A DNA stretch of 64,000 nucleotides from the NCBI RefSeq assembly GCF_044324785.1, contig NZ_CP172127.1. One strand, 5' to 3'. The translations under genes were made by a program, and so were the position numbers. Within the stretch, counting starts at the first letter, position 1. Each line of letters begins with the position of its first letter. Below, one piece after another: positions 8,268 to 29,466 of this stretch. The notes under the pieces were generated by a model. The model ran no database searches, had not been told where the DNA came from, and saw nothing but the letters and a program-made list of their open reading frames with translations. This DNA comes from Escherichia coli (GTDB taxonomy: Bacteria; Pseudomonadota; Gammaproteobacteria; Enterobacterales; Enterobacteriaceae).

Positions 8268-8293
8268 TCCACAAAAAAGCCCGCAGCGCGGGC
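8268..8293 (-). terminator. Rho-independent terminator of the two-gene cassette
   Basis: Minus strand GCCCGCGCUGCGGGC hairpin followed by UUUUUUG, overlapping stop codon at 8293-8295. Confidence 0.6.
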
Positions 8294-8733
8294 TATTCTT
8301 CTTCATCATTAAAAAGCGGATTGTTGTTTCCATCTGATGAAAGGAAAGGTATGTGTTCTCTTGAAAATCCAACAATGACAATTTCATTATCATTTTTTGC
8401 ATAATGAATGCATTCATTAGAATGCCTTCCGCCAGGGTTGAAATTTAAGTTAATGGTATAATTCTTAAATGTGTTTGGATACCATGTTGGCCCACAATGA
8501 TAATGCCAATAATTCTCTTGCTCATAATTGTCTGAGCCGGGAATTTTATCATGGTTATCATCAACCCACGAGGGCTTGTTTTTTCCAACAAGCGCCCTTC
8601 CATTGGCAACATCCTCTAAAAAACTTTGTATGATTTTTATTTCATCATCAGTAAGGAAAGGTCCGTCTACAGCGAAAGGGGTGTTGCTTTCCCCATGTAG
8701 AAAACTATTAGATATTCTAATGTTAAACTTCAA
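8293..8733 (-). CDS. Unknown 146-aa protein, no internal Met, proposed TTG start, acidic C-terminus (AT-rich cargo gene)
   Basis: Frame of ORF 8293..8874; AGGAG 6 nt before TTG 8733; upstream part of the 193-aa ORF overlaps a better-supported small gene in another frame. Confidence 0.45.
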   Translation of the reverse strand: MKFNIRISNSFLHGESNTPFAVDGPFLTDDEIKIIQSFLEDVANGRALVGKNKPSWVDDNHDKIPGSDNYEQENYWHYHCGPTWYPNTFKNYTINLNFNPGGRHSNECIHYAKNDNEIVIVGFSREHIPFLSSDGNNNPLFNDEEE

Positions 8734-8753
8734 GGAAAACTCCTGATGTGCTT

Positions 8754-8921
8754 CTATTTGGAGCGAAATGCCGCCTTGAAGTCGCTGAAAGATGTTCCTG
8801 TCTGGTAAACCATATCCTTGTCGCGCTCTTTGCTTGCGCGGCCAAGCATAACTTTTCCAATGACATCCCAGCATTGCTTGGCTTGTTCATTGTGCTGAGT
8901 ACGATTTTTCAACGCTGTCAT
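8754..8921 (-). CDS. Unknown small basic protein, 55 aa (MTALKNRTQHNEQAKQCWDVIGKVMLGRASKERDKDMVYQTGTSFSDFKAAFRSK)
   Basis: ATG 8921 preceded by AAAGGAGG at 7-nt spacing; hand-translated; below ORF-track length cutoff. Confidence 0.45.
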   Translation of the reverse strand: MTALKNRTQHNEQAKQCWDVIGKVMLGRASKERDKDMVYQTGTSFSDFKAAFRSK

Positions 8922-8947
8922 ATCGCGCCTCCTTTACCTTTAAGGTA

Positions 8948-8976
8948 ATAGTACGCTATTCACCCACAGTCTGCAA
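8948..8976 (-). promoter_or_regulatory. Sigma70-like promoter of the two-gene cassette (TTGCAG, 17 bp, TACTAT)
   Basis: Minus-strand reading about 27 nt upstream of ATG 8921. Confidence 0.4.
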
Positions 8977-9020
8977 TCTGTACAGAATTATTTAAAGGCA
9001 CATCCCTGTGCCACCGCCCG

Positions 9021-9713
9021 TCAGAAGAACCCTGCTTTGTCGTTGATGTACTCCGCGTGCGTCTGGATATCACGCAGGCATTTGCTCACACCGACGATGT
9101 AGCAGAACATGGTGGTCAGCTCCGCCGCCGCGCCCGATACGTCGTGCCCGTCTTCCTGTAACTGGTTCAGCAGATTCATCAGCAGTGAGTTCTCCGTCAG
9201 GCCGAGAACACCAGACGGCGAATGAATCAGGCTGCGGTAGCCGGGCTTCAGCGGGGCGCTGTAGGTTTTGTTCTCTATCTTCATCGCCTGCATTACTGCT
9301 GACGCCGTGGCGTTGGCTACCTGGTCGGCAACCATCTTTATGCGTTCTTCCTGCGGGAGCGAGTTTTTAATGTAACTTCCGGTGCGACGGATCTGAGGAA
9401 GAACCTCACCTGTAACCCATTCAAGAAATCTGAATGCTCTCGTTCCCTCTGTCATTGCCTCTTTGCAACGCAGAATAAGGATGTAGAGACCTGATTCTGA
9501 AACGATGGATAGTTCTTGTATTCCACCAGGGGTCTGTATTGAATACAGCCCCTTTTTGTTCCAGCCTTTTTTATCAAGTTTTCTCGCTTGTGTAACATCA
9601 ATATTCAAAGCATTGCACACATCTTTGGTGACAAACCAAGGTTCTCCGTCAATCATGAACATACGGATCTGGCAGGATGACTCAAAGGAAAAGATGGAAG
9701 GTTTGGTATTCAT
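9021..9713 (-). CDS. Bro-N domain antirepressor-like protein, about 230 aa
   Basis: N-terminal FSF...IR..MIDGEPWFVTKDVCNALNI matches Bro-N/phage antirepressor signature; start ATG 9713 after AAGGTGA. Confidence 0.7.
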   Translation of the reverse strand: MNTKPSIFSFESSCQIRMFMIDGEPWFVTKDVCNALNIDVTQARKLDKKGWNKKGLYSIQTPGGIQELSIVSESGLYILILRCKEAMTEGTRAFRFLEWVTGEVLPQIRRTGSYIKNSLPQEERIKMVADQVANATASAVMQAMKIENKTYSAPLKPGYRSLIHSPSGVLGLTENSLLMNLLNQLQEDGHDVSGAAAELTTMFCYIVGVSKCLRDIQTHAEYINDKAGFF

Positions 9714-9857
9714 GGCGATCACCTTTGTAGTTAGGTTAATCACCACCGCTGAGACCAATCAGATGGTGGTGAACTGTGCAGAGTTGGTCTTACCGGCTAC
9801 AAAGGAACCCGGCGCACCTTTCGGTGCCCCCACACAGCCCACCATAGAATAGGTGCG

Positions 9858-9876
9858 CTTTACACATAAAAAAACC
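9858..9876 (-). terminator. Weak candidate terminator (4-bp GC stem plus U7) ending the LexA-controlled transcript
   Basis: Minus strand GCGG-auaa-CCGC then UUUUUUU. Confidence 0.3.
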
Positions 9877-9890
9877 GCTTATGCGGCATA

Positions 9891-9944
9891 TGTGCCTCTG
9901 TAGTAATCCGGGAGACCAATCCCGGCACTGGATTTTGCCAGTGC
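9891..9944. other. Three-way-junction forming element: 7-bp outer stem enclosing two 6-bp hairpins
   Basis: tagtaat / ccggga-gaccaa-tcccgg / cactgg-attttg-ccagtg / attacta, all perfect complements. Confidence 0.4.
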
Positions 9945-9960
9945 CTGATTACTATGGCAC

Positions 9961-9989
9961 AAGAGGAGTGCTTATATTTACCGCAAAGG
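9961..9989. other. Perfect 12-bp stem hairpin with 5-nt loop
   Basis: cttatatttacc gcaaa ggtaaatataag. Confidence 0.45.
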
Positions 9990-10023
9990 TAAATATAAGC
10001 ACTCCAGTTGGTAATTACAAACC

Positions 10024-10281
10024 TTATCTGGTTTGTTTTCGTAATTGTTCGGCACAATAGTCTAGATGTGTTTGCAGATCCTGCATAGACATCTGTGAGC
10101 TGGTGACGTAGTTAATCAGTGCAGTCAGTTCGGCAAGTGGGCCATCGACATTAAATCCATCCTTATCGAGATCCCGGAGTAATTTCATCAAGTGCGATCC
10201 CTCCACCAGTGACCTGACGCCTCCCGGCGTGTGAATCCTTTCGGTAAATCCGTCTTCCAGTGGATAGTGATACTGCTGCAT
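10024..10281 (-). CDS. 85-aa protein, stand-alone paralogue of the C-terminal domain of the Bro-N protein; candidate SOS-induced antirepressor
   Basis: ATG 10281 after GGAGAAG; alignable to residues about 170-230 of the 9021..9713 product; LexA box 22 bp upstream. Confidence 0.55.
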   Translation of the reverse strand: MQQYHYPLEDGFTERIHTPGGVRSLVEGSHLMKLLRDLDKDGFNVDGPLAELTALINYVTSSQMSMQDLQTHLDYCAEQLRKQTR

Positions 10282-10302
10282 CTTATCTTCTCCATGCAAT
10301 AA

Positions 10303-10318
10303 CTGTATAAATATACAG
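10303..10318. promoter_or_regulatory. LexA (SOS) box CTGTATAAATATACAG
   Basis: CTGT-N8-ACAG with AT-rich spacer, 18/20 match to TACTGTATATATATACAGTA including flanks. Confidence 0.65.
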
Positions 10319-10476
10319 TATCAAATAATTTGTTTGCTATCCAGCACGTTTTGCAAATCACCTGAAAGGTAATATCTTTTCGTATTTATGGATTATCTAT
10401 CCATATGTGGTTTTTCAGGTAATAGAATAACCAGATATGCGGCGCAACGGGTGCTGCGACTATCTGGAGATTTAAC

Positions 10477-13233
10477 ATGACGGTCTCAACCGAAGTTGAC
10501 CACAACGAATACACCGGTAACGGCGCTACGACATCATTTCCGTATACCTTCCGTATTTTCAAAAAATCCGACCTGGTTGTTCAGGTGTCTGACCTGAACG
10601 GGAACGTAACAGAATTGGTTCTGGATACCGGTTATACGGTAACTGGGGCGGGCACTTATAGTGGCGGTTCTGTTGTTCTTCCGTCGCCGCTTGCTGCTGG
10701 ATGGCGAATTACGATAGATCGTGTGCTTGATGTAGTGCAGGAGACAGACCTTCGCAATCAGGGAAAATTTTTCCCCGAAGTGCATGAAGATGCTTTTGAC
10801 TACCTGACGATGCTGATCCAGCAATGTTTTGGGTGGTTCAGACGTGCATTGATGAAACCATCTTTGCTTGCAAAATATTACGATGCAAAGCAAAACAGAA
10901 TTTCTAACCTTGCAGATCCATCACTTGAGCAGGATGCTGTAAATAATCGCTCAATGCGTAATTATGTTGATGCTGCAATCGCCGGAGTTGTTGGTGGTTT
11001 TGGTTGGTTTATTCAGTATGGTTCTGGAGCAGTATACCGAACGTTCCAGGATAAGATGCGGGATAACGTTAACGCTCTTGATTTTGTTCCGTTTGAGCAA
11101 AGATATGCTGCATTAAATTTTGAAGTTGATGCGTCTGAATGGTTAATTAATGCGATAAATTCTGGTGCAAGTGTCGTTAGAATACCTGCAGGTAAATGGA
11201 TGATTTCTAAGAACATAGATGTGCCTCCTGGAGTGTCATTAATTGGTGATGGCATTGATTATTGGGATACATATAGACCAGCGCCTGAAAGATTATTAAA
11301 AAGTTGGAGTAAAGGAACCCATCTTGTATTTACTGGTGATGGAGAAAAAAACAAATATTTTTTTAACATCTCTAATGAAAGACCAGTTAAAATTGTTGAA
11401 GGGATATCTTGTAAGTTCACTGAGTTTACAAATGAAGATTCTGTAGGTGTTACTCCTGCTACACCAAAAGCCATGAGCGTAGCTGTTAGTATCAACAGGG
11501 CATCACAGTTACGCAACCTGAGAATAATGGTAAGTAAAAATGGTATTGAAGGATACAATAACCCTGATTCTTATTCATTGGGTGATGACTGGGATATAGG
11601 GTTGCATGTATACGATAGCTGTGATTCAGTTATTGATAACGTACAGATTGTCGGCTATTGGAGGGTAAAAGGACTACTACTGACAGAAAATGACGGGAGC
11701 CTTTCAATGAAGGGAAATCCTGAAAAAACGCACTTTAATAACGTTTATGTCCAGTCAGGGATCGCGATAAGGAATAGCCCTCAGATTGATCTTGTAAGTA
11801 ATACTGAAAGCTCAGTGACATTTAAACATAAAAAGTCGATGAGAATAACTTCAGTTAAACAGTTTAAAATTGCTGGCAGTGAATTAGTATATACGTATTC
11901 AGATGCATCATTTGATGGAACTAACATCACACTATCTGGTATTTCTCCTGAAATACAAGGTACAATAAGTGTAATCAGGTTTCCGTCAATTGGTAATAAT
12001 TTTAGCGGGACTGTTTTTGAGAATACAGTAGCCACTACTCTTGATCATACATCAGGTAAGCCATCAGAATACTTTGGCCTTCCTGCATCCTTTGCATTAG
12101 AGGTTGATGGTTTCCCTGTTCGTAATTTAAGGTTTGATAAATTCAAAGCTCAAACAACATTTGATAAAGGAAATTGCATTTTTGGTGATTGCCGTGATGT
12201 TAAAATAACATCATCTGAGTTTGAAAATGGAATTATGATTGCGTATAACCTGACCGAGACTCAGGGTTATACAGGAAATCTTAGATTTTTTGCTTCTGAT
12301 CTTCAGAGCAGCGTTAACACAAGTGAGTTTAAACCAAGAGACGCATTTGTAGACAATAGACAAATAAAAACGGAGTTTACTGATGGTTCGTTCATTATAA
12401 AGAACTGGAGGCCTACAGATACAAAAATACAATGGTCGTCTGGAGCAGATGCTATTGTTCTTAGAGAGTCACCTGACGAACAATCAAACGGAAATATTTA
12501 CGGGCATCACATTGATGGTAAAAGATGGATTAATGTTAGTGGATATAACAAAGATATAAATATTTCATCAAGAAACTTAAGCGTAAAAAACCATGGTGAT
12601 GACTCTGCAGTTATTAATATATTCGGCGACTCTGGAAATATTGCCATTAAAGGTAATTTTTCACCAATTATTGATAACAGCAAATCTCTTGGTGCACCAT
12701 CATTTAGATGGGCACAGGTTTATTCTGCGAACGGTTCGATAAACACATCAGATGGTAGAGAAAAAAGTGAACCGATTAGTACAAGTGAGCTCAGCTTGTA
12801 TATGTCTCGTGGTTATGAAGGTGATGCAATTCTGGATGCATGGGGAGATATCAGGATTGTAGCTTTTCGCTGGCTTGATGCCGTCAGGGAAAAGGGAGAT
12901 GGTGCCCGCTGGCATTTTGGTGTTATAGCACAACAAGTGAGAGACGCTTTCCTCGCGCATGGGATTGATGGAACCAGATTTGGCCTTCTCTGTTACGATG
13001 AATGGGATGATAAATACGCGCCAGTGATGGCGGTAAGGATGATCACTAAAGTTGTGGATGGCGTCGAAATTGAGATGGAAGAAGAATACGAAACAGAAGA
13101 GCGAACTCTGGTTTGCAAGGCTGGAAATAGGTGGGGTATCCGTACTGACCAGTGTTTATGGCTTGAGTCAGCTTATTTGCGTAGAAGAATCGAAAAAATA
13201 GAATCACGTCTTGCAATGCTTGAAAGTAGCTAA
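10477..13233 (+). CDS. Tailspike/tail fibre, 918 aa: T7 gp17-like N-terminal anchor, AT-rich central receptor-binding part, C-terminal intramolecular chaperone (peptidase S74-like) domain
   Basis: ORF track; GGAG RBS; N-terminal pattern resembling podovirus fibre anchors; C-terminal SDGREK motif region; GC drop in the middle. Confidence 0.8.
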   Translation: MTVSTEVDHNEYTGNGATTSFPYTFRIFKKSDLVVQVSDLNGNVTELVLDTGYTVTGAGTYSGGSVVLPSPLAAGWRITIDRVLDVVQETDLRNQGKFFPEVHEDAFDYLTMLIQQCFGWFRRALMKPSLLAKYYDAKQNRISNLADPSLEQDAVNNRSMRNYVDAAIAGVVGGFGWFIQYGSGAVYRTFQDKMRDNVNALDFVPFEQRYAALNFEVDASEWLINAINSGASVVRIPAGKWMISKNIDVPPGVSLIGDGIDYWDTYRPAPERLLKSWSKGTHLVFTGDGEKNKYFFNISNERPVKIVEGISCKFTEFTNEDSVGVTPATPKAMSVAVSINRASQLRNLRIMVSKNGIEGYNNPDSYSLGDDWDIGLHVYDSCDSVIDNVQIVGYWRVKGLLLTENDGSLSMKGNPEKTHFNNVYVQSGIAIRNSPQIDLVSNTESSVTFKHKKSMRITSVKQFKIAGSELVYTYSDASFDGTNITLSGISPEIQGTISVIRFPSIGNNFSGTVFENTVATTLDHTSGKPSEYFGLPASFALEVDGFPVRNLRFDKFKAQTTFDKGNCIFGDCRDVKITSSEFENGIMIAYNLTETQGYTGNLRFFASDLQSSVNTSEFKPRDAFVDNRQIKTEFTDGSFIIKNWRPTDTKIQWSSGADAIVLRESPDEQSNGNIYGHHIDGKRWINVSGYNKDINISSRNLSVKNHGDDSAVINIFGDSGNIAIKGNFSPIIDNSKSLGAPSFRWAQVYSANGSINTSDGREKSEPISTSELSLYMSRGYEGDAILDAWGDIRIVAFRWLDAVREKGDGARWHFGVIAQQVRDAFLAHGIDGTRFGLLCYDEWDDKYAPVMAVRMITKVVDGVEIEMEEEYETEERTLVCKAGNRWGIRTDQCLWLESAYLRRRIEKIESRLAMLESS

Positions 13234-17053: not shown

Positions 17054-17301
17054 AAAAGGTTCCTTGAAGTATGTCCCACGCTGTGGACGGTACTTACATT
17101 AAGGCACAACAGGACAAAATGGTCAATTCTTCGTTATGTAAAAAAGCGTCAGTGGATACATATTTTAATGTTATGGAAGTTAATTTAATTATTTACAATG
17201 ATGATGTAATAATGATGAATTAACATGATAAACGTAATAATTCATTAATCAGGGTTATTTTGTTTGATATATATCAATTGGAACTTTCATATGACACTTA
17301 G

Positions 17302-18496
<1,195 letters not shown>

Positions 18497-27380: not shown

Positions 27381-28670
27381 ATGACGCGCCGTGCTATCGG
27401 GGTGAGTGAAAGACCGCCACTTTTACAGACAATCCCGCTTAGTTTGCAACATTTGTTCGCCATGTTTGGTGCAACCGTCCTGGTGCCCGTCTTATTTCAT
27501 ATTAACCCGGCGACTGTACTGTTATTTAACGGTATAGGAACGCTGCTATATCTCTTCATCTGTAAAGGGAAAATTCCGGCTTATCTTGGTTCCAGCTTTG
27601 CCTTTATTTCACCGGTATTGTTACTGTTGCCGTTGGGGTATGAAGTCGCGCTGGGCGGCTTTATTATGTGCGGCGTGCTGTTCTGCCTGGTTTCTTTTAT
27701 CGTGAAGAAAGCGGGGACCGGCTGGCTGGACGTGCTGTTTCCACCTGCGGCAATGGGCGCAATCGTTGCCGTCATCGGTCTGGAGCTGGCGGGCGTAGCT
27801 GCCGGTATGGCAGGTTTACTCCCGGCTGAAGGGCAAACTCCAGACTCCAAAACCATCATCATCTCCATTACCACCCTGGCAGTCACGGTTTTAGGTTCCG
27901 TGCTGTTTCGTGGTTTCCTGGCAATTATCCCGATTTTAATTGGCGTGCTGGTGGGCTACGCGCTCTCTTTCGCAATGGGAATTGTCGATACCACGCCGAT
28001 TATTAATGCTCACTGGTTTGCGCTGCCAACCCTCTATACGCCGCGCTTCGAGTGGTTTGCCATTCTGACTATTCTGCCAGCGGCGTTAGTGGTTATTGCC
28101 GAACACGTAGGGCACCTGGTGGTAACGGCTAATATCGTCAAAAAAGATCTGCTGCGCGATCCAGGTCTGCACCGTTCGATGTTTGCTAACGGCTTGTCGA
28201 CCGTGATCTCCGGCTTCTTTGGCTCCACGCCAAATACCACCTACGGGGAAAACATTGGCGTGATGGCGATCACCCGTGTTTACAGTACCTGGGTTATCGG
28301 CGGGGCAGCGATTTTCGCTATCCTGCTTTCCTGCGTCGGTAAACTGGCTGCTGCTATCCAGATGATCCCATTGCCGGTGATGGGCGGCGTTTCGCTGCTG
28401 CTTTATGGTGTCATCGGTGCTTCCGGTATTCGTGTTTTGATCGAATCGAAAGTGGATTACAACAAAGCACAGAACCTGATCCTGACTTCCGTGATTTTGA
28501 TCATCGGTGTCAGTGGCGCGAAGGTAAACATCGGCGCGGCGGAGCTGAAAGGTATGGCGCTGGCGACCATCGTCGGTATCGGCTTAAGTTTGATCTTCAA
28601 ACTGATTAGTGTGCTGCGCCCTGAAGAAGTGGTGCTGGACGCAGAAGACGCGGATATAACAGACAAATAA
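27381..28670 (+). CDS. uraA: Uracil permease, 429 aa
   Basis: ORF 27339..28670 with recalled start [15 protein letters not shown]. Confidence 0.9.
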
Positions 28671-28764
28671 TGTACCGACCGGGCAGTGTTGCTGCCCGGT
28701 TCAAACATCATGGGATTCTGTGGTAAACTTCTCGCGATTTTGTGAAATCCTGGTTGAGGTATCT

Positions 28765-29466
28765 CTGAACACACCGGCACAGCTCTCTTTGCCACTTTAT
28801 CTTCCTGACGACGAAACCTTTGCAAGTTTCTGGCCGGGGGATAACTCCTCTTTACTGGCCGCGCTGCAAAACGTGCTGCGTCAGGAACATAGCGGTTACA
28901 TCTATCTCTGGGCACGCGAAGGCGCGGGGCGCAGCCATCTGCTGCACGCGGCTTGCGCGGAATTGTCGCAGCGTGGCGATGCGGTGGGCTATGTCCCGCT
29001 GGATAAACGCACCTGGTTTGTTCCGGAAGTGCTCGACGGTATGGAGCATTTGTCGCTGGTCTGTATCGACAACATTGAGTGTATTGCAGGCGATGAGTTG
29101 TGGGAGATGGCGATTTTCGATCTCTACAATCGAATTCTGGAATCGGGCAAAACACGATTGTTGATCACTGGCGATCGTCCACCGCGGCAGTTGAATCTGG
29201 GATTACCGGATCTCGCGTCGCGACTCGACTGGGGGCAGATCTACAAATTGCAGCCACTTTCTGATGAAGATAAGTTGCAGGCGCTACAGTTACGCGCGCG
29301 TTTGCGTGGTTTTGAACTGCCGGAAGATGTGGGGCGTTTCTTGCTGAAGCGGCTCGACAGAGAAATGCGCACGTTATTTATGACGTTGGATCAGTTGGAT
29401 CGTGCGTCGATTACCGCGCAACGTAAGCTGACCATTCCGTTTGTGAAAGAAATTCTGAAACTGTAG
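28765..29466 (+). CDS. hda: DnaA-inactivating protein Hda, 233 aa with CTG start
   Basis: ORF 28720..29466; Hda is known to initiate at CUG; CTG at 28765 gives [12 protein letters not shown]. Confidence 0.75.

What the first reader, a model, noticed from the sequence alone, without database searches (positions are those of the whole stretch)
10282..10340. Near-consensus LexA box in front of a small prophage gene: SOS-wired antirepressor circuit
aaCTGTATAAATATACAGta at 10301-10320 matches the LexA consensus at 18 of 20 positions and lies 22 bp upstream of the ATG of the 85-aa gene (minus strand), overlapping the only plausible promoter. The gene is followed by a structured 3' region and a candidate terminator, so it is a stand-alone SOS-inducible unit. 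Its product is homologous to the C-terminal domain of the neighbouring Bro-N antirepressor-like protein. This fits the indirect-induction strategy known from coliphage 186 Tum and the Salmonella Gifsy antirepressors, where LexA controls a small antirepressor instead of the phage repressor self-cleaving.
Basis: partly seen in the sequence, partly recalled or inferred. Interest (0 to 1): 0.65.

Follow-up and report, generated by a model that had tools for sequence, protein, structure and literature searches.

The report
LexA-controlled Ant antirepressor of an epsilon15-like prophage
The LexA box is real and sits on the promoter of a small gene that closely matches (88% identical) the characterised Ant antirepressor of Salmonella phage SPC32H, so this is a correct rediscovery of a known way of linking prophage induction to DNA damage.

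Summary
AACTGTATAAATATACAGTA (10301-10320) matches the 20-nt LexA consensus at 18 of 20 positions. It is the only such site in 64 kb, and none appeared in 100 shuffles. It lies just upstream of an 85-aa gene (10281-10024, minus strand).

That gene is the orthologue of Ant of Salmonella phage SPC32H: 88% identity, and E = 4e-47 to PDB 5D50 'Anti-repressor protein'. The window holds the right part of an epsilon15/phiV10-like (Uetakevirus) prophage in E. coli.

The LexA box sits at the same place in nine related phages from four host genera. CTGT/ACAG is kept in six of them while the centre varies. Ant and a non-cleavable HTH repressor (Rep) co-occur in all 35 phage records that carry Ant. Here Rep lies outside the window.

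One sub-claim is wrong. The 'structured 3' region plus terminator' is not the 3' end of a stand-alone unit. It is an IsrK/a1b1 plus C4 antisense-RNA cassette of the P1 immI / Gifsy-1 isrK type. This cassette controls the neighbouring Bro-N antirepressor.

Interest is low for the finding itself and modest for the tandem arrangement.

The parts
10301..10320 (-). LexA (SOS) box. Read on the minus strand it is TACTGTATATTTATACAGTT.
   Evidence: 2 mismatches to the 20-nt consensus, unique in the window, 0 of 100 shuffles. Found at the same position in 9 related phages: CTGT/ACAG is kept in six with a variable centre, and the three Klebsiella phages have ATGT...ACAG. One such box per genome in SPC32H and EC.W1-9, always in front of ant.
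10315..10343 (-). Inferred ant promoter: -35 TGGATA (10343-10338), 17-nt spacer, extended TG (10323-10322), -10 TACTGT (10320-10315). The -10 is the left half of the LexA box.
   Evidence: Relaxed scan. CTGGATAG, TG and TA..T are invariant in alignment A1. The layout matches the annotated p95/LexA/tum region of phage 186. No transcription start has been mapped, so this is an inference.
10024..10281 (-). ant: 85-aa antirepressor, orthologue of SPC32H Ant. SD GGAG at 10293-10290.
   Evidence: phmmer against PDB 5D50 chain E 'Anti-repressor protein', E = 4.1e-47 over residues 2-84. 88% identity to SPC32H ant. Syntenic with SPC32H_020 and epsilon15 gp19. PHROG 450. No Pfam or NCBIfam family.
10357..10373 (.). 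17-bp palindrome ATCACCTGAAAGGTAAT, a putative operator of the phage repressor Rep, in the ant/tailspike intergenic region.
   Evidence: ATTACC-N5-GGTAAT occurs 18 times in SPC32H and 18 times in EC.W1-9 against about 1 expected, clustered around rep/cro. The same site is annotated 'repressor; lysogeny' in the epsilon15 GenBank record. The half-sites are invariant in A1.
10400..10428 (+). Candidate promoter of the divergent tailspike gene (TCCATA-17-TAGAAT). Tailspike ATG at 10477.
   Evidence: Relaxed scan. The equivalent TTCATA-17-TAGAAT is found in SPC32H and in Klebsiella phage ST512-KPC3phi13.3.
9965..10003 (.). Perfect 39-bp palindrome directly after the ant stop codon. It has a Rep-operator-like core, TTTACC-N5-GGTAAA (9977-9993), and overlaps the promoter-like TTGTAA-17-TATATT (10020-9992, minus strand).
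   Evidence: Sequence. Operator-like match. Promoter scan. The TTACC-N5-GGTAAAT core is invariant in 6 genomes. It forms an 18-bp hairpin in RNA with no U-run after it.
9868..9957 (-). IsrK / c4-a1b1 element. It carries a1 (9903-9895) and b1 (9919-9913) and ends in its own intrinsic terminator (stem 9887-9874, then a T-run).
   Evidence: Rfam RF01394 isrK 74.7 bits (gathering 50). RF03163 c4-a1b1 38.4 bits, below its gathering score of 46.7. Terminator scan.
9762..9849 (-). C4-type antisense RNA with a' (9805-9797) and b' (9790-9784).
   Evidence: Rfam RF01695 78.6 bits (gathering 45), full length. a' and b' are perfectly complementary to a1/b1 and a2/b2. Three b' specificities covary with their targets across genomes.
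9722..9758 (-). C4 targets b2 (9758-9752) and a2 (9730-9722). a2 covers the Shine-Dalgarno of the Bro-N antirepressor gene.
   Evidence: RNA duplex computation: a'/a2 9 bp at -12.0 kcal/mol, b'/b2 7 bp at -9.2 kcal/mol.
9021..9713 (-). Second antirepressor: Bro-N domain plus an Ant-like C-terminal domain (230 aa from the ATG at 9713).
   Evidence: Pfam Bro-N, E = 4e-13. PHROG 130 'anti-repressor Ant', E = 3.5e-51. PHROG 450 matches residues 147-228. 42% identity to the 85-aa Ant.

Best explanation
The window's first 15.4 kb are the right part of an epsilon15/phiV10-like (Uetakevirus) prophage in E. coli.

Proposed mechanism:
1. The 85-aa gene is ant. In the lysogen, host LexA sits on the box at 10301-10320. 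That box contains the -10 element of the ant promoter and the likely transcription start, so it blocks transcription.
2. DNA damage activates RecA and LexA cleaves itself, so Ant is made.
3. Ant binds the prophage repressor Rep and takes its DNA-binding tetramer apart. Rep is an HTH protein without a self-cleavage domain and is encoded outside the window, about 29 kb upstream of ant in the related E. coli EC21 prophage.
4. Rep leaves its ATTACC-N5-GGTAAT operators and the lytic genes switch on.

What is shown here: the site, the gene, the orthology, the conservation of the site, and the co-occurrence of Ant with Rep.

What is taken from the literature on SPC32H: LexA control, and Ant-Rep binding.

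What is inferred: that both hold for this E. coli prophage, and the exact promoter.
For: LexA box:
- 18 of 20 match, unique in the window, 0 of 100 shuffles.
- Same position in 9 phages of E. coli, Salmonella, Enterobacter and Klebsiella; half-sites are kept in six while the centre varies.
- Exactly one such box per genome in SPC32H and EC.W1-9, always at ant.

Ant:
- E = 4e-47 to PDB 5D50 'Anti-repressor protein', 88% identity.
- Synteny with SPC32H and epsilon15.

Rep:
- All 35 phage records with Ant also carry a Rep homologue.
- A complete E. coli prophage of this type has one about 29 kb upstream of ant.
- The E. coli-type Rep has HTH domains only and no Peptidase_S24.

Literature:
- Ant is made after LexA cleavage and inhibits the repressor by protein contact, citing Kim & Ryu 2013 (PMC7380047; PMC9437464).
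- The Rep tetramerisation domain is also the Ant contact (PMC9986798).

Promoter:
- The geometry is identical to the annotated 186 p95-LexA-tum region.
Against: - No experiment exists on this E. coli prophage.
- The E. coli-type Rep is only 42% identical to SPC32H Rep, while Ant is 88% identical. Ant-Rep pairing here is therefore inferred from co-occurrence, not shown.
- Rep is not in the window, so whether this copy of the prophage is intact cannot be checked.
- The ant promoter is weak by consensus and was not found by the strict scan.
- I could not read the primary SPC32H papers. I rely on how other papers cite them and on my own recollection that LexA binding to the ant promoter was shown there.
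Confidence: 0.88

Rival explanations
1. Coupled cascade (an extension rather than a contradiction). No terminator lies between the ant stop codon and the IsrK/a1b1 element. The LexA-controlled transcript may therefore run into that element and end at the IsrK terminator. SOS induction would then deliver both Ant and an a1b1 'decoy' RNA. The decoy would pair with the C4 antisense RNA and unlock translation of the second, Bro-N antirepressor.
For: - No terminator-like site between 10024 and 9887; the first one is IsrK's own.
- ant and the cassette are directly adjacent and co-oriented in the window, phiV10, ZX5 and Tyrion.
- a1/b1 are perfectly complementary to C4 a'/b' and covary with them.
- In Gifsy-1, short IsrK activates translation of the downstream antirepressor, and IsrK is complementary to the downstream RNA STnc1160 (PMC4825925).
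- In the window the -35 of the cassette's own promoter is degraded relative to ZX5, Tyrion and the Klebsiella phages.
Against: - The cassette is an autonomous, portable module found in 225 phage records with unrelated antirepressor genes.
- In Klebsiella phage ST512-KPC3phi13.3 a strong terminator and the cassette's own promoter, TTTACA-17-CATAGT, separate it from ant.
- SPC32H, epsilon15 and BUCT554 have ant without the cassette.
- A promoter-like site (TTGTAA-17-TATATT) and a Rep-operator-like palindrome lie between ant and IsrK in the window. The palindrome could also act as a roadblock.
Confidence: 0.2
2. The LexA box works, but the product does not induce its own prophage. Possible reasons are that Ant no longer fits the diverged E. 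coli-type Rep, that it acts mainly in trans on other prophages, or that the prophage is defective.
For: - Rep is 42% identical while Ant is 88% identical between the E. coli and Salmonella phages.
- Trans-acting antirepressors are known from Gifsy and Fels prophages (PMC7380047).
- Only part of the prophage is in the window.
Against: - Ant and Rep co-occur in 35 of 35 records.
- Rep similarity extends over its full length, including the C-terminal region.
- The putative operator palindrome is the same in both lineages.
- The segment is kept in 542 of 5426 complete E. coli genomes.
Confidence: 0.07
3. The palindrome is a chance AT-rich promoter sequence, or it serves another protein or the divergent tailspike gene, and LexA does not control ant.
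For: The centre of the box is AT-rich and overlaps -10-like sequence. The strict promoter scan gave no call there.
Against: - 0 of 100 shuffles gave such a site.
- CTGT/ACAG is kept while the centre drifts.
- The box lies 157 bp from the tailspike ATG, which has its own conserved promoter at 10400-10428.
- The SPC32H and epsilon15 boxes have the same 16-nt core as the annotated LexA site of phage 186 p95.
Confidence: 0.03

Closest known systems
Ant/Rep antirepression system of Salmonella phage SPC32H (Kim & Ryu 2013, J Virol 87:11775; Kim et al. 2016, PNAS, PDB 5D4Z/5D50)
   Same: - Same protein family, 88% identity.
- Same phage genus (Uetakevirus).
- Same position, between the end of the structural operon and the divergent tailspike gene.
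- LexA box at the same distance from the ATG.
- Same type of HTH repressor without a cleavage domain in the closest complete relatives.
- Same operator-like palindrome in the intergenic region.
   Different: - The host is E. coli.
- The cognate Rep is only 42% identical.
- The box differs at 2 positions from the SPC32H box (it differs from the consensus at 2 positions; the SPC32H box differs at 3).
- ant is followed by an IsrK/C4/Bro-N antirepressor cassette, whereas SPC32H has only about 50 bp with one terminator-like hairpin before the convergent structural genes.
Coliphage 186 p95-tum SOS operon
   Same: LexA box used as the -10 region of the promoter of a small antirepressor gene. The start codon lies about 20 nt after the box. 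The repressor is inactivated by binding, not by cleavage.
   Different: No sequence similarity (E = 0.06). Tum is 146 aa; its RefSeq product name is 'RecA filament binding protein DinI'. The phage type is unrelated (P2-like myovirus).
Gifsy/Fels antirepressors (GfoA, GfhA, Tum-like) and N15 AntC
   Same: LexA-repressed small antirepressors that drive SOS induction of prophages whose repressors do not cleave (PMC3121763, listed; PMC7380047).
   Different: Not compared by sequence here. Pfam and NCBIfam give no family, and PHROGs give only 450, 15539 and 1760.
P1/P7 immI (c4-icd-ant) and the Gifsy-1 isrK-orf45-anrP locus. This applies to the neighbouring cassette, not to the LexA unit.
   Same: The order is a1b1/IsrK, then C4 RNA, then a2b2 over a ribosome-binding site, then an antirepressor gene. 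Specificity loops covary with their targets, as they do between heteroimmune P1 and P7.
   Different: a2 covers the Shine-Dalgarno of the antirepressor gene itself; no icd/orf45-type coupled leader ORF is evident. The antirepressor is a Bro-N protein with an Ant-like C-terminus, unrelated to Gifsy-1 AnrP. The cassette sits directly downstream of a LexA-controlled ant gene.

Membership tests
SPC32H-type Ant (Uetakevirus small antirepressor) | Sequence homology to SPC32H Ant over the full length | tested here: met
   E = 4.1e-47, residues 2-84 against 3-85 of PDB 5D50_E. 88% identity by tblastn.
SPC32H-type Ant (Uetakevirus small antirepressor) | Conserved genomic position: divergent from the tailspike gene, after the structural operon | tested here: met
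   Synteny with SPC32H, epsilon15, phiV10 and others.
SPC32H-type Ant (Uetakevirus small antirepressor) | LexA box overlapping the ant promoter | tested here: met
   This is sequence evidence only.
SPC32H-type Ant (Uetakevirus small antirepressor) | Cognate Rep (HTH repressor, no autocleavage domain) in the same phage | tested here: inconclusive
   There is no Rep in the window, because that part of the prophage lies outside it. Rep is present in all 35 Ant-bearing phage records and in E. coli EC21. It has HTH only, no Peptidase_S24.
SPC32H-type Ant (Uetakevirus small antirepressor) | LexA binding, SOS-dependent expression, and Ant-Rep complex formation | not testable with these tools
   Needs EMSA, qRT-PCR and a pull-down. 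Known for SPC32H only from the literature.
186 Tum / DinI-like antirepressors | Sequence homology to Tum | tested here: not met
   BLASTP E = 0.061, 14 of 46 identities.
186 Tum / DinI-like antirepressors | LexA box serving as the -10 of the antirepressor promoter | tested here: met
   Same geometry as the annotated p95 region. This shows that it works like Tum, not that it is a member.
P1 immI / IsrK-C4 antisense module (neighbouring cassette) | C4 antisense RNA above the Rfam gathering score | tested here: met
   RF01695, 78.6 bits against 45.
P1 immI / IsrK-C4 antisense module (neighbouring cassette) | Upstream a1/b1 element (IsrK / c4-a1b1) | tested here: met
   RF01394, 74.7 bits against 50. 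RF03163 scores only 38.4 against 46.7. Complementarity to a'/b' is shown.
P1 immI / IsrK-C4 antisense module (neighbouring cassette) | a2/b2 targets over the ribosome-binding site of the gene in front of, or encoding, the antirepressor, covarying with C4 | tested here: met
   a2 covers the SD of the Bro-N gene. Three b' types covary with b1 and b2, and a 1-nt deletion in a' is matched in a1 and a2.
P1 immI / IsrK-C4 antisense module (neighbouring cassette) | Translationally coupled leader ORF (icd / orf45) | tested here: inconclusive
   I read only a 28-codon ATG frame inside C4, which ends about 50 nt before the Bro-N ATG (sequence). ZX5 annotates an 'ash family protein' there. Coupling was not tested.

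The most novel reading that the evidence does not exclude
In E. coli and Enterobacter Uetakevirus prophages, the LexA-controlled ant mRNA may carry the IsrK/a1b1 element as its 3' untranslated region. DNA damage would then produce Ant and, at the same time, an RNA that titrates the C4 antisense RNA. That would release translation of a second antirepressor, a Bro-N protein carrying an Ant-like Rep-binding domain. The result would be an SOS-triggered feed-forward cascade that links a protein switch and an RNA switch.
Probability: 0.2. Interest if true: 0.5.

Novelty: already known. Interest (0 to 1): 0.22.

Why it matters
The circuit explains how this common class of E. coli prophage senses DNA damage without a cleavable repressor. 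The segment is present in 542 of 5426 complete E. coli genomes.

In RefSeq and in most phage records the gene is still labelled 'hypothetical protein'. The practical value is therefore an annotation transfer from SPC32H Ant.

The part that may go beyond published work is the arrangement of two antirepressors in tandem. One is under LexA. The other is under an IsrK/C4 antisense-RNA switch. The two share a homologous Rep-binding-type domain.

Tried and rejected
- Strict sigma-70 scan of 9000-10600: no promoter at the LexA box. A relaxed scan plus conservation was needed.
- Pfam and NCBIfam for the 85-aa protein: no family.
- tblastn of SPC32H Rep against the window: no Rep, consistent with the prophage being cut by the window edge.
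- Homology of Ant to 186 Tum: rejected.
- Homology of the Bro-N protein or of Ant to Gifsy-1 AnrP: rejected. The RNA cassette is therefore shared between these loci, but the protein is not.
- The 39-bp palindrome after ant as an intrinsic terminator: rejected, because no U-run follows it.
- The primary papers (PMC3807360, PMC4983836, PMC2698709) are not held in the library.
- A weak Trp_leader hit at 8271-8377 (21.5 bits against a gathering score of 41) was dismissed as chance.

Full report
**1. Observation**

The 20-mer AACTGTATAAATATACAGTA lies at 10301-10320. It differs from the LexA consensus TACTGTATATATATACAGTA at two positions. It is the only site within three mismatches in the 64-kb window, and no such site appeared in 100 dinucleotide-preserving shuffles. 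The loose core CTGT-N8-ACAG occurs three times against 0.67 expected.

On the minus strand an 85-codon ORF starts at the ATG at 10281 and stops at 10024. A GGAG Shine-Dalgarno sits at 10293-10290. Nineteen nucleotides separate the 20-mer from the ATG.

The ORF product is 42% identical over 74 residues (E = 6e-16) to the C-terminal part of the neighbouring 230-aa protein encoded at 9713-9021. That neighbour has a Bro-N domain and matches PHROG antirepressor families.

The 171 nt after the stop codon fold very strongly (z = -9.3). They contain a terminator-like hairpin with a T-run at 9887-9867.

All factual parts of the finding are confirmed.

**2. What the region is**

The window's first 15.4 kb are collinear with Salmonella phage SPC32H from its structural genes to its lysis genes. 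They are near-identical to the E. coli phages EC.W1-9, ZX5, TL-2011b and phiV10, all Uetakevirus, the epsilon15 group.

Beyond about 15.4 kb the window matches E. coli chromosome next to yfgI/yfgH. The window therefore holds the right arm of an integrated prophage.

The 85-aa protein hits one entry in the Protein Data Bank: chain E of 5D50, 'Anti-repressor protein', E = 4.1e-47 over residues 2-84. It is 88% identical to the gene annotated ant (SPC32H_020) in SPC32H, which sits at the same place, divergent from the tailspike gene. It has no Pfam or NCBIfam family. In most records it is called a hypothetical protein.

**3. Is the LexA box meaningful?**

I aligned the ant-tailspike intergenic region of nine phages from E. 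coli, Salmonella, Enterobacter and Klebsiella.

- In six of them, CTGT and ACAG are kept at the same distance from the ATG. The eight central bases differ (TATATTTAT, TATGTTTAT, TATAAGCAT, TACATATAT).
- The three Klebsiella phages have ATGT...ACAG.
- SPC32H and EC.W1-9 each have exactly one LexA-like 20-mer in the whole genome, and it is this one.

The bases T-G-n-T-A-n-n-n-T that begin at the left edge of the box, and an upstream CTGGATAG block, are invariant. They fit an extended -10 promoter: -35 TGGATA, 17 nt, TG, then -10 TACTGT, spanning 10343-10315. The -10 of this promoter is the left half-site of the box.

The annotated p95 promoter of phage 186 has the same geometry. There the LexA box starts with the -10, and the tum start codon follows 19 nt after the box.

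The promoter assignment is an inference. The strict scan did not call it.

**4. Mechanism**

From the literature on SPC32H:

[quoted passage not shown] - The Rep tetramerisation domain is the Ant contact (PMC9986798).

I could not read the two primary papers.

From the work here:

- All 35 phage records that encode Ant also encode a Rep homologue.
- A complete E. coli prophage of this type has Rep about 29 kb upstream of ant.
- The E. coli-type Rep has HTH domains only and no S24 peptidase domain. It cannot be induced by self-cleavage.
- The E. coli-type Rep is only 42% identical to SPC32H Rep. Ant-Rep pairing in this lineage is therefore inferred, not shown.

A 17-bp palindrome, ATTACC-N5-GGTAAT, occurs 18 times in SPC32H and 18 times in EC.W1-9 against about one expected. 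It clusters around rep/cro. The epsilon15 GenBank record marks it as a repressor binding site. One copy lies at 10357-10373, between the ant and tailspike promoters.

**5. The 'structured 3' region'**

Rfam finds three elements on the minus strand:

- an isrK RNA at 9944-9868 (74.7 bits, gathering score 50);
- a c4-a1b1 match at 9957-9905 (38.4 bits, below its gathering score);
- a full-length C4 antisense RNA at 9849-9762 (78.6 bits, gathering score 45).

The candidate terminator is IsrK's own terminator.

The C4 loops pair with two sets of targets:

- a' (CCUUUGUAG) pairs with a1 inside IsrK and with a2 (CUACAAAGG). a2 is the Shine-Dalgarno of the Bro-N gene.
- b' (AGACCAA) pairs perfectly with b1 inside IsrK and with b2 downstream of C4.

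Across six phages there are three b' variants (AGACCAA, ACGCCAA, GUCUCAA), each matched by its targets. A one-base deletion in a' is mirrored in both a1 and a2.

This is the architecture of P1/P7 immI and of the Gifsy-1 isrK-orf45-anrP locus (PMC4825925; Weinberg et al. 2010, PMC2864571).

The cassette is portable:

- It is found in 225 phage records, including Stx phages, SfV, APSE and Gifsy-1.
- It is attached to unrelated antirepressor proteins.
- It is absent from SPC32H, epsilon15 and BUCT554.
- In Klebsiella phage ST512-KPC3phi13.3 a strong terminator and the cassette's own promoter separate it from ant.

In the window the layout differs. No terminator lies between the ant stop codon and IsrK. 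Instead there is a perfect 39-bp palindrome (9965-10003) with an operator-like core, overlapping a promoter-like site.

The ant gene is therefore not demonstrably a stand-alone unit. Its transcripts may run into IsrK. This leaves open an SOS-to-RNA-switch coupling, which I rate at about 0.2.

**6. Comparison and novelty**

The LexA-ant unit is a member of the SPC32H Ant family by sequence, position and regulatory site. It works like 186 Tum but is not related to it (E = 0.06).

For the finding as stated, the system is already known. What is missing is annotation: the segment occurs in 542 of 5426 complete E. coli genomes, and the gene is labelled hypothetical.

I did not find the tandem arrangement described in the papers I could search. 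That arrangement pairs a LexA-controlled Ant with an RNA-controlled Bro-N protein that carries an Ant-like domain. It is a modest lead and not a new kind of system.

**7. Verdict**

Confidence in the mechanism is 0.88. Novelty is 'already known'. Interest is 0.22.

Noticed in passing
window 9762-9957 (minus strand): An IsrK/c4-a1b1 element and a C4 antisense RNA form a P1-immI-like switch in front of the Bro-N antirepressor gene. Three specificity variants of the b' loop covary with both targets across related phages, which suggests heteroimmune classes like P1 and P7.
   Followed up: yes
window 9965-10003: A perfect 39-bp palindrome (GAGTGCTTATATTTACC-TTTGC-GGTAAATATAAGCACTC) lies directly after the ant stop codon. 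Its core resembles the putative Rep operator, and it overlaps a promoter-like site (TTGTAA-17-TATATT, 10020-9992). In ZX5, Tyrion and the Klebsiella phages the same spot carries a better -35 (TTTACA) for an IsrK promoter and is less palindromic.
   Followed up: partly
window 10357-10373, 9977-9993, 8933-8949; L003 and L010 genome-wide: The 17-bp palindrome ATTACC-N5-GGTAAT occurs 18 times per Uetakevirus genome against about 1 expected. It is found at early, late, lysis and integrase promoters, not only at rep/cro. It is the same in the Salmonella and E. coli phages although their Rep proteins are only 42% identical.
   Followed up: partly
L013 7045-7064 compared with L003 19956-19975: The LexA box of phage 186 p95 (TACTGTATGTTTATACAGTA) is identical at 19 of 20 positions to the box in front of ant in SPC32H and epsilon15, although Tum and Ant are unrelated proteins.
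   Followed up: partly
window 8293-8874 (minus strand): A 193-aa ORF lies downstream of the Bro-N gene. It matches PHROG 5954 (unknown function, E = 2e-73) and has no NCBIfam family. It is probably an accessory gene of the prophage.
   Followed up: no
window 10477-13233 (plus strand): The 918-aa tailspike shares DNA similarity with the SPC32H tailspike only over its first ~350 nt (to window 10823). In related E. coli prophages the gene at this position carries varied RefSeq labels: endosialidase beta-propeller, GH28-related, SGNH/GDSL hydrolase. This points to modular exchange of the receptor-binding part.
   Followed up: no
window 17301-18496: About 1.2 kb of the host part of the window has no counterpart in E. 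coli EC21, whose flanking sequence matches on both sides. It may be an insertion or an IS element.
   Followed up: no
L010 (EC.W1-9) 28067-28982: In phage EC.W1-9 about 1 kb, containing two plus-strand ORFs, is inserted between ant and the IsrK/C4 cassette. This shows that the junction tolerates insertions.
   Followed up: no
L002 1723-1836 (ZX5); window 9762-9849: A short ORF annotated 'ash family protein' in ZX5 and in Hafnia phage yong2 overlaps the C4 RNA. It is probably a protein call on a non-coding RNA.
   Followed up: no
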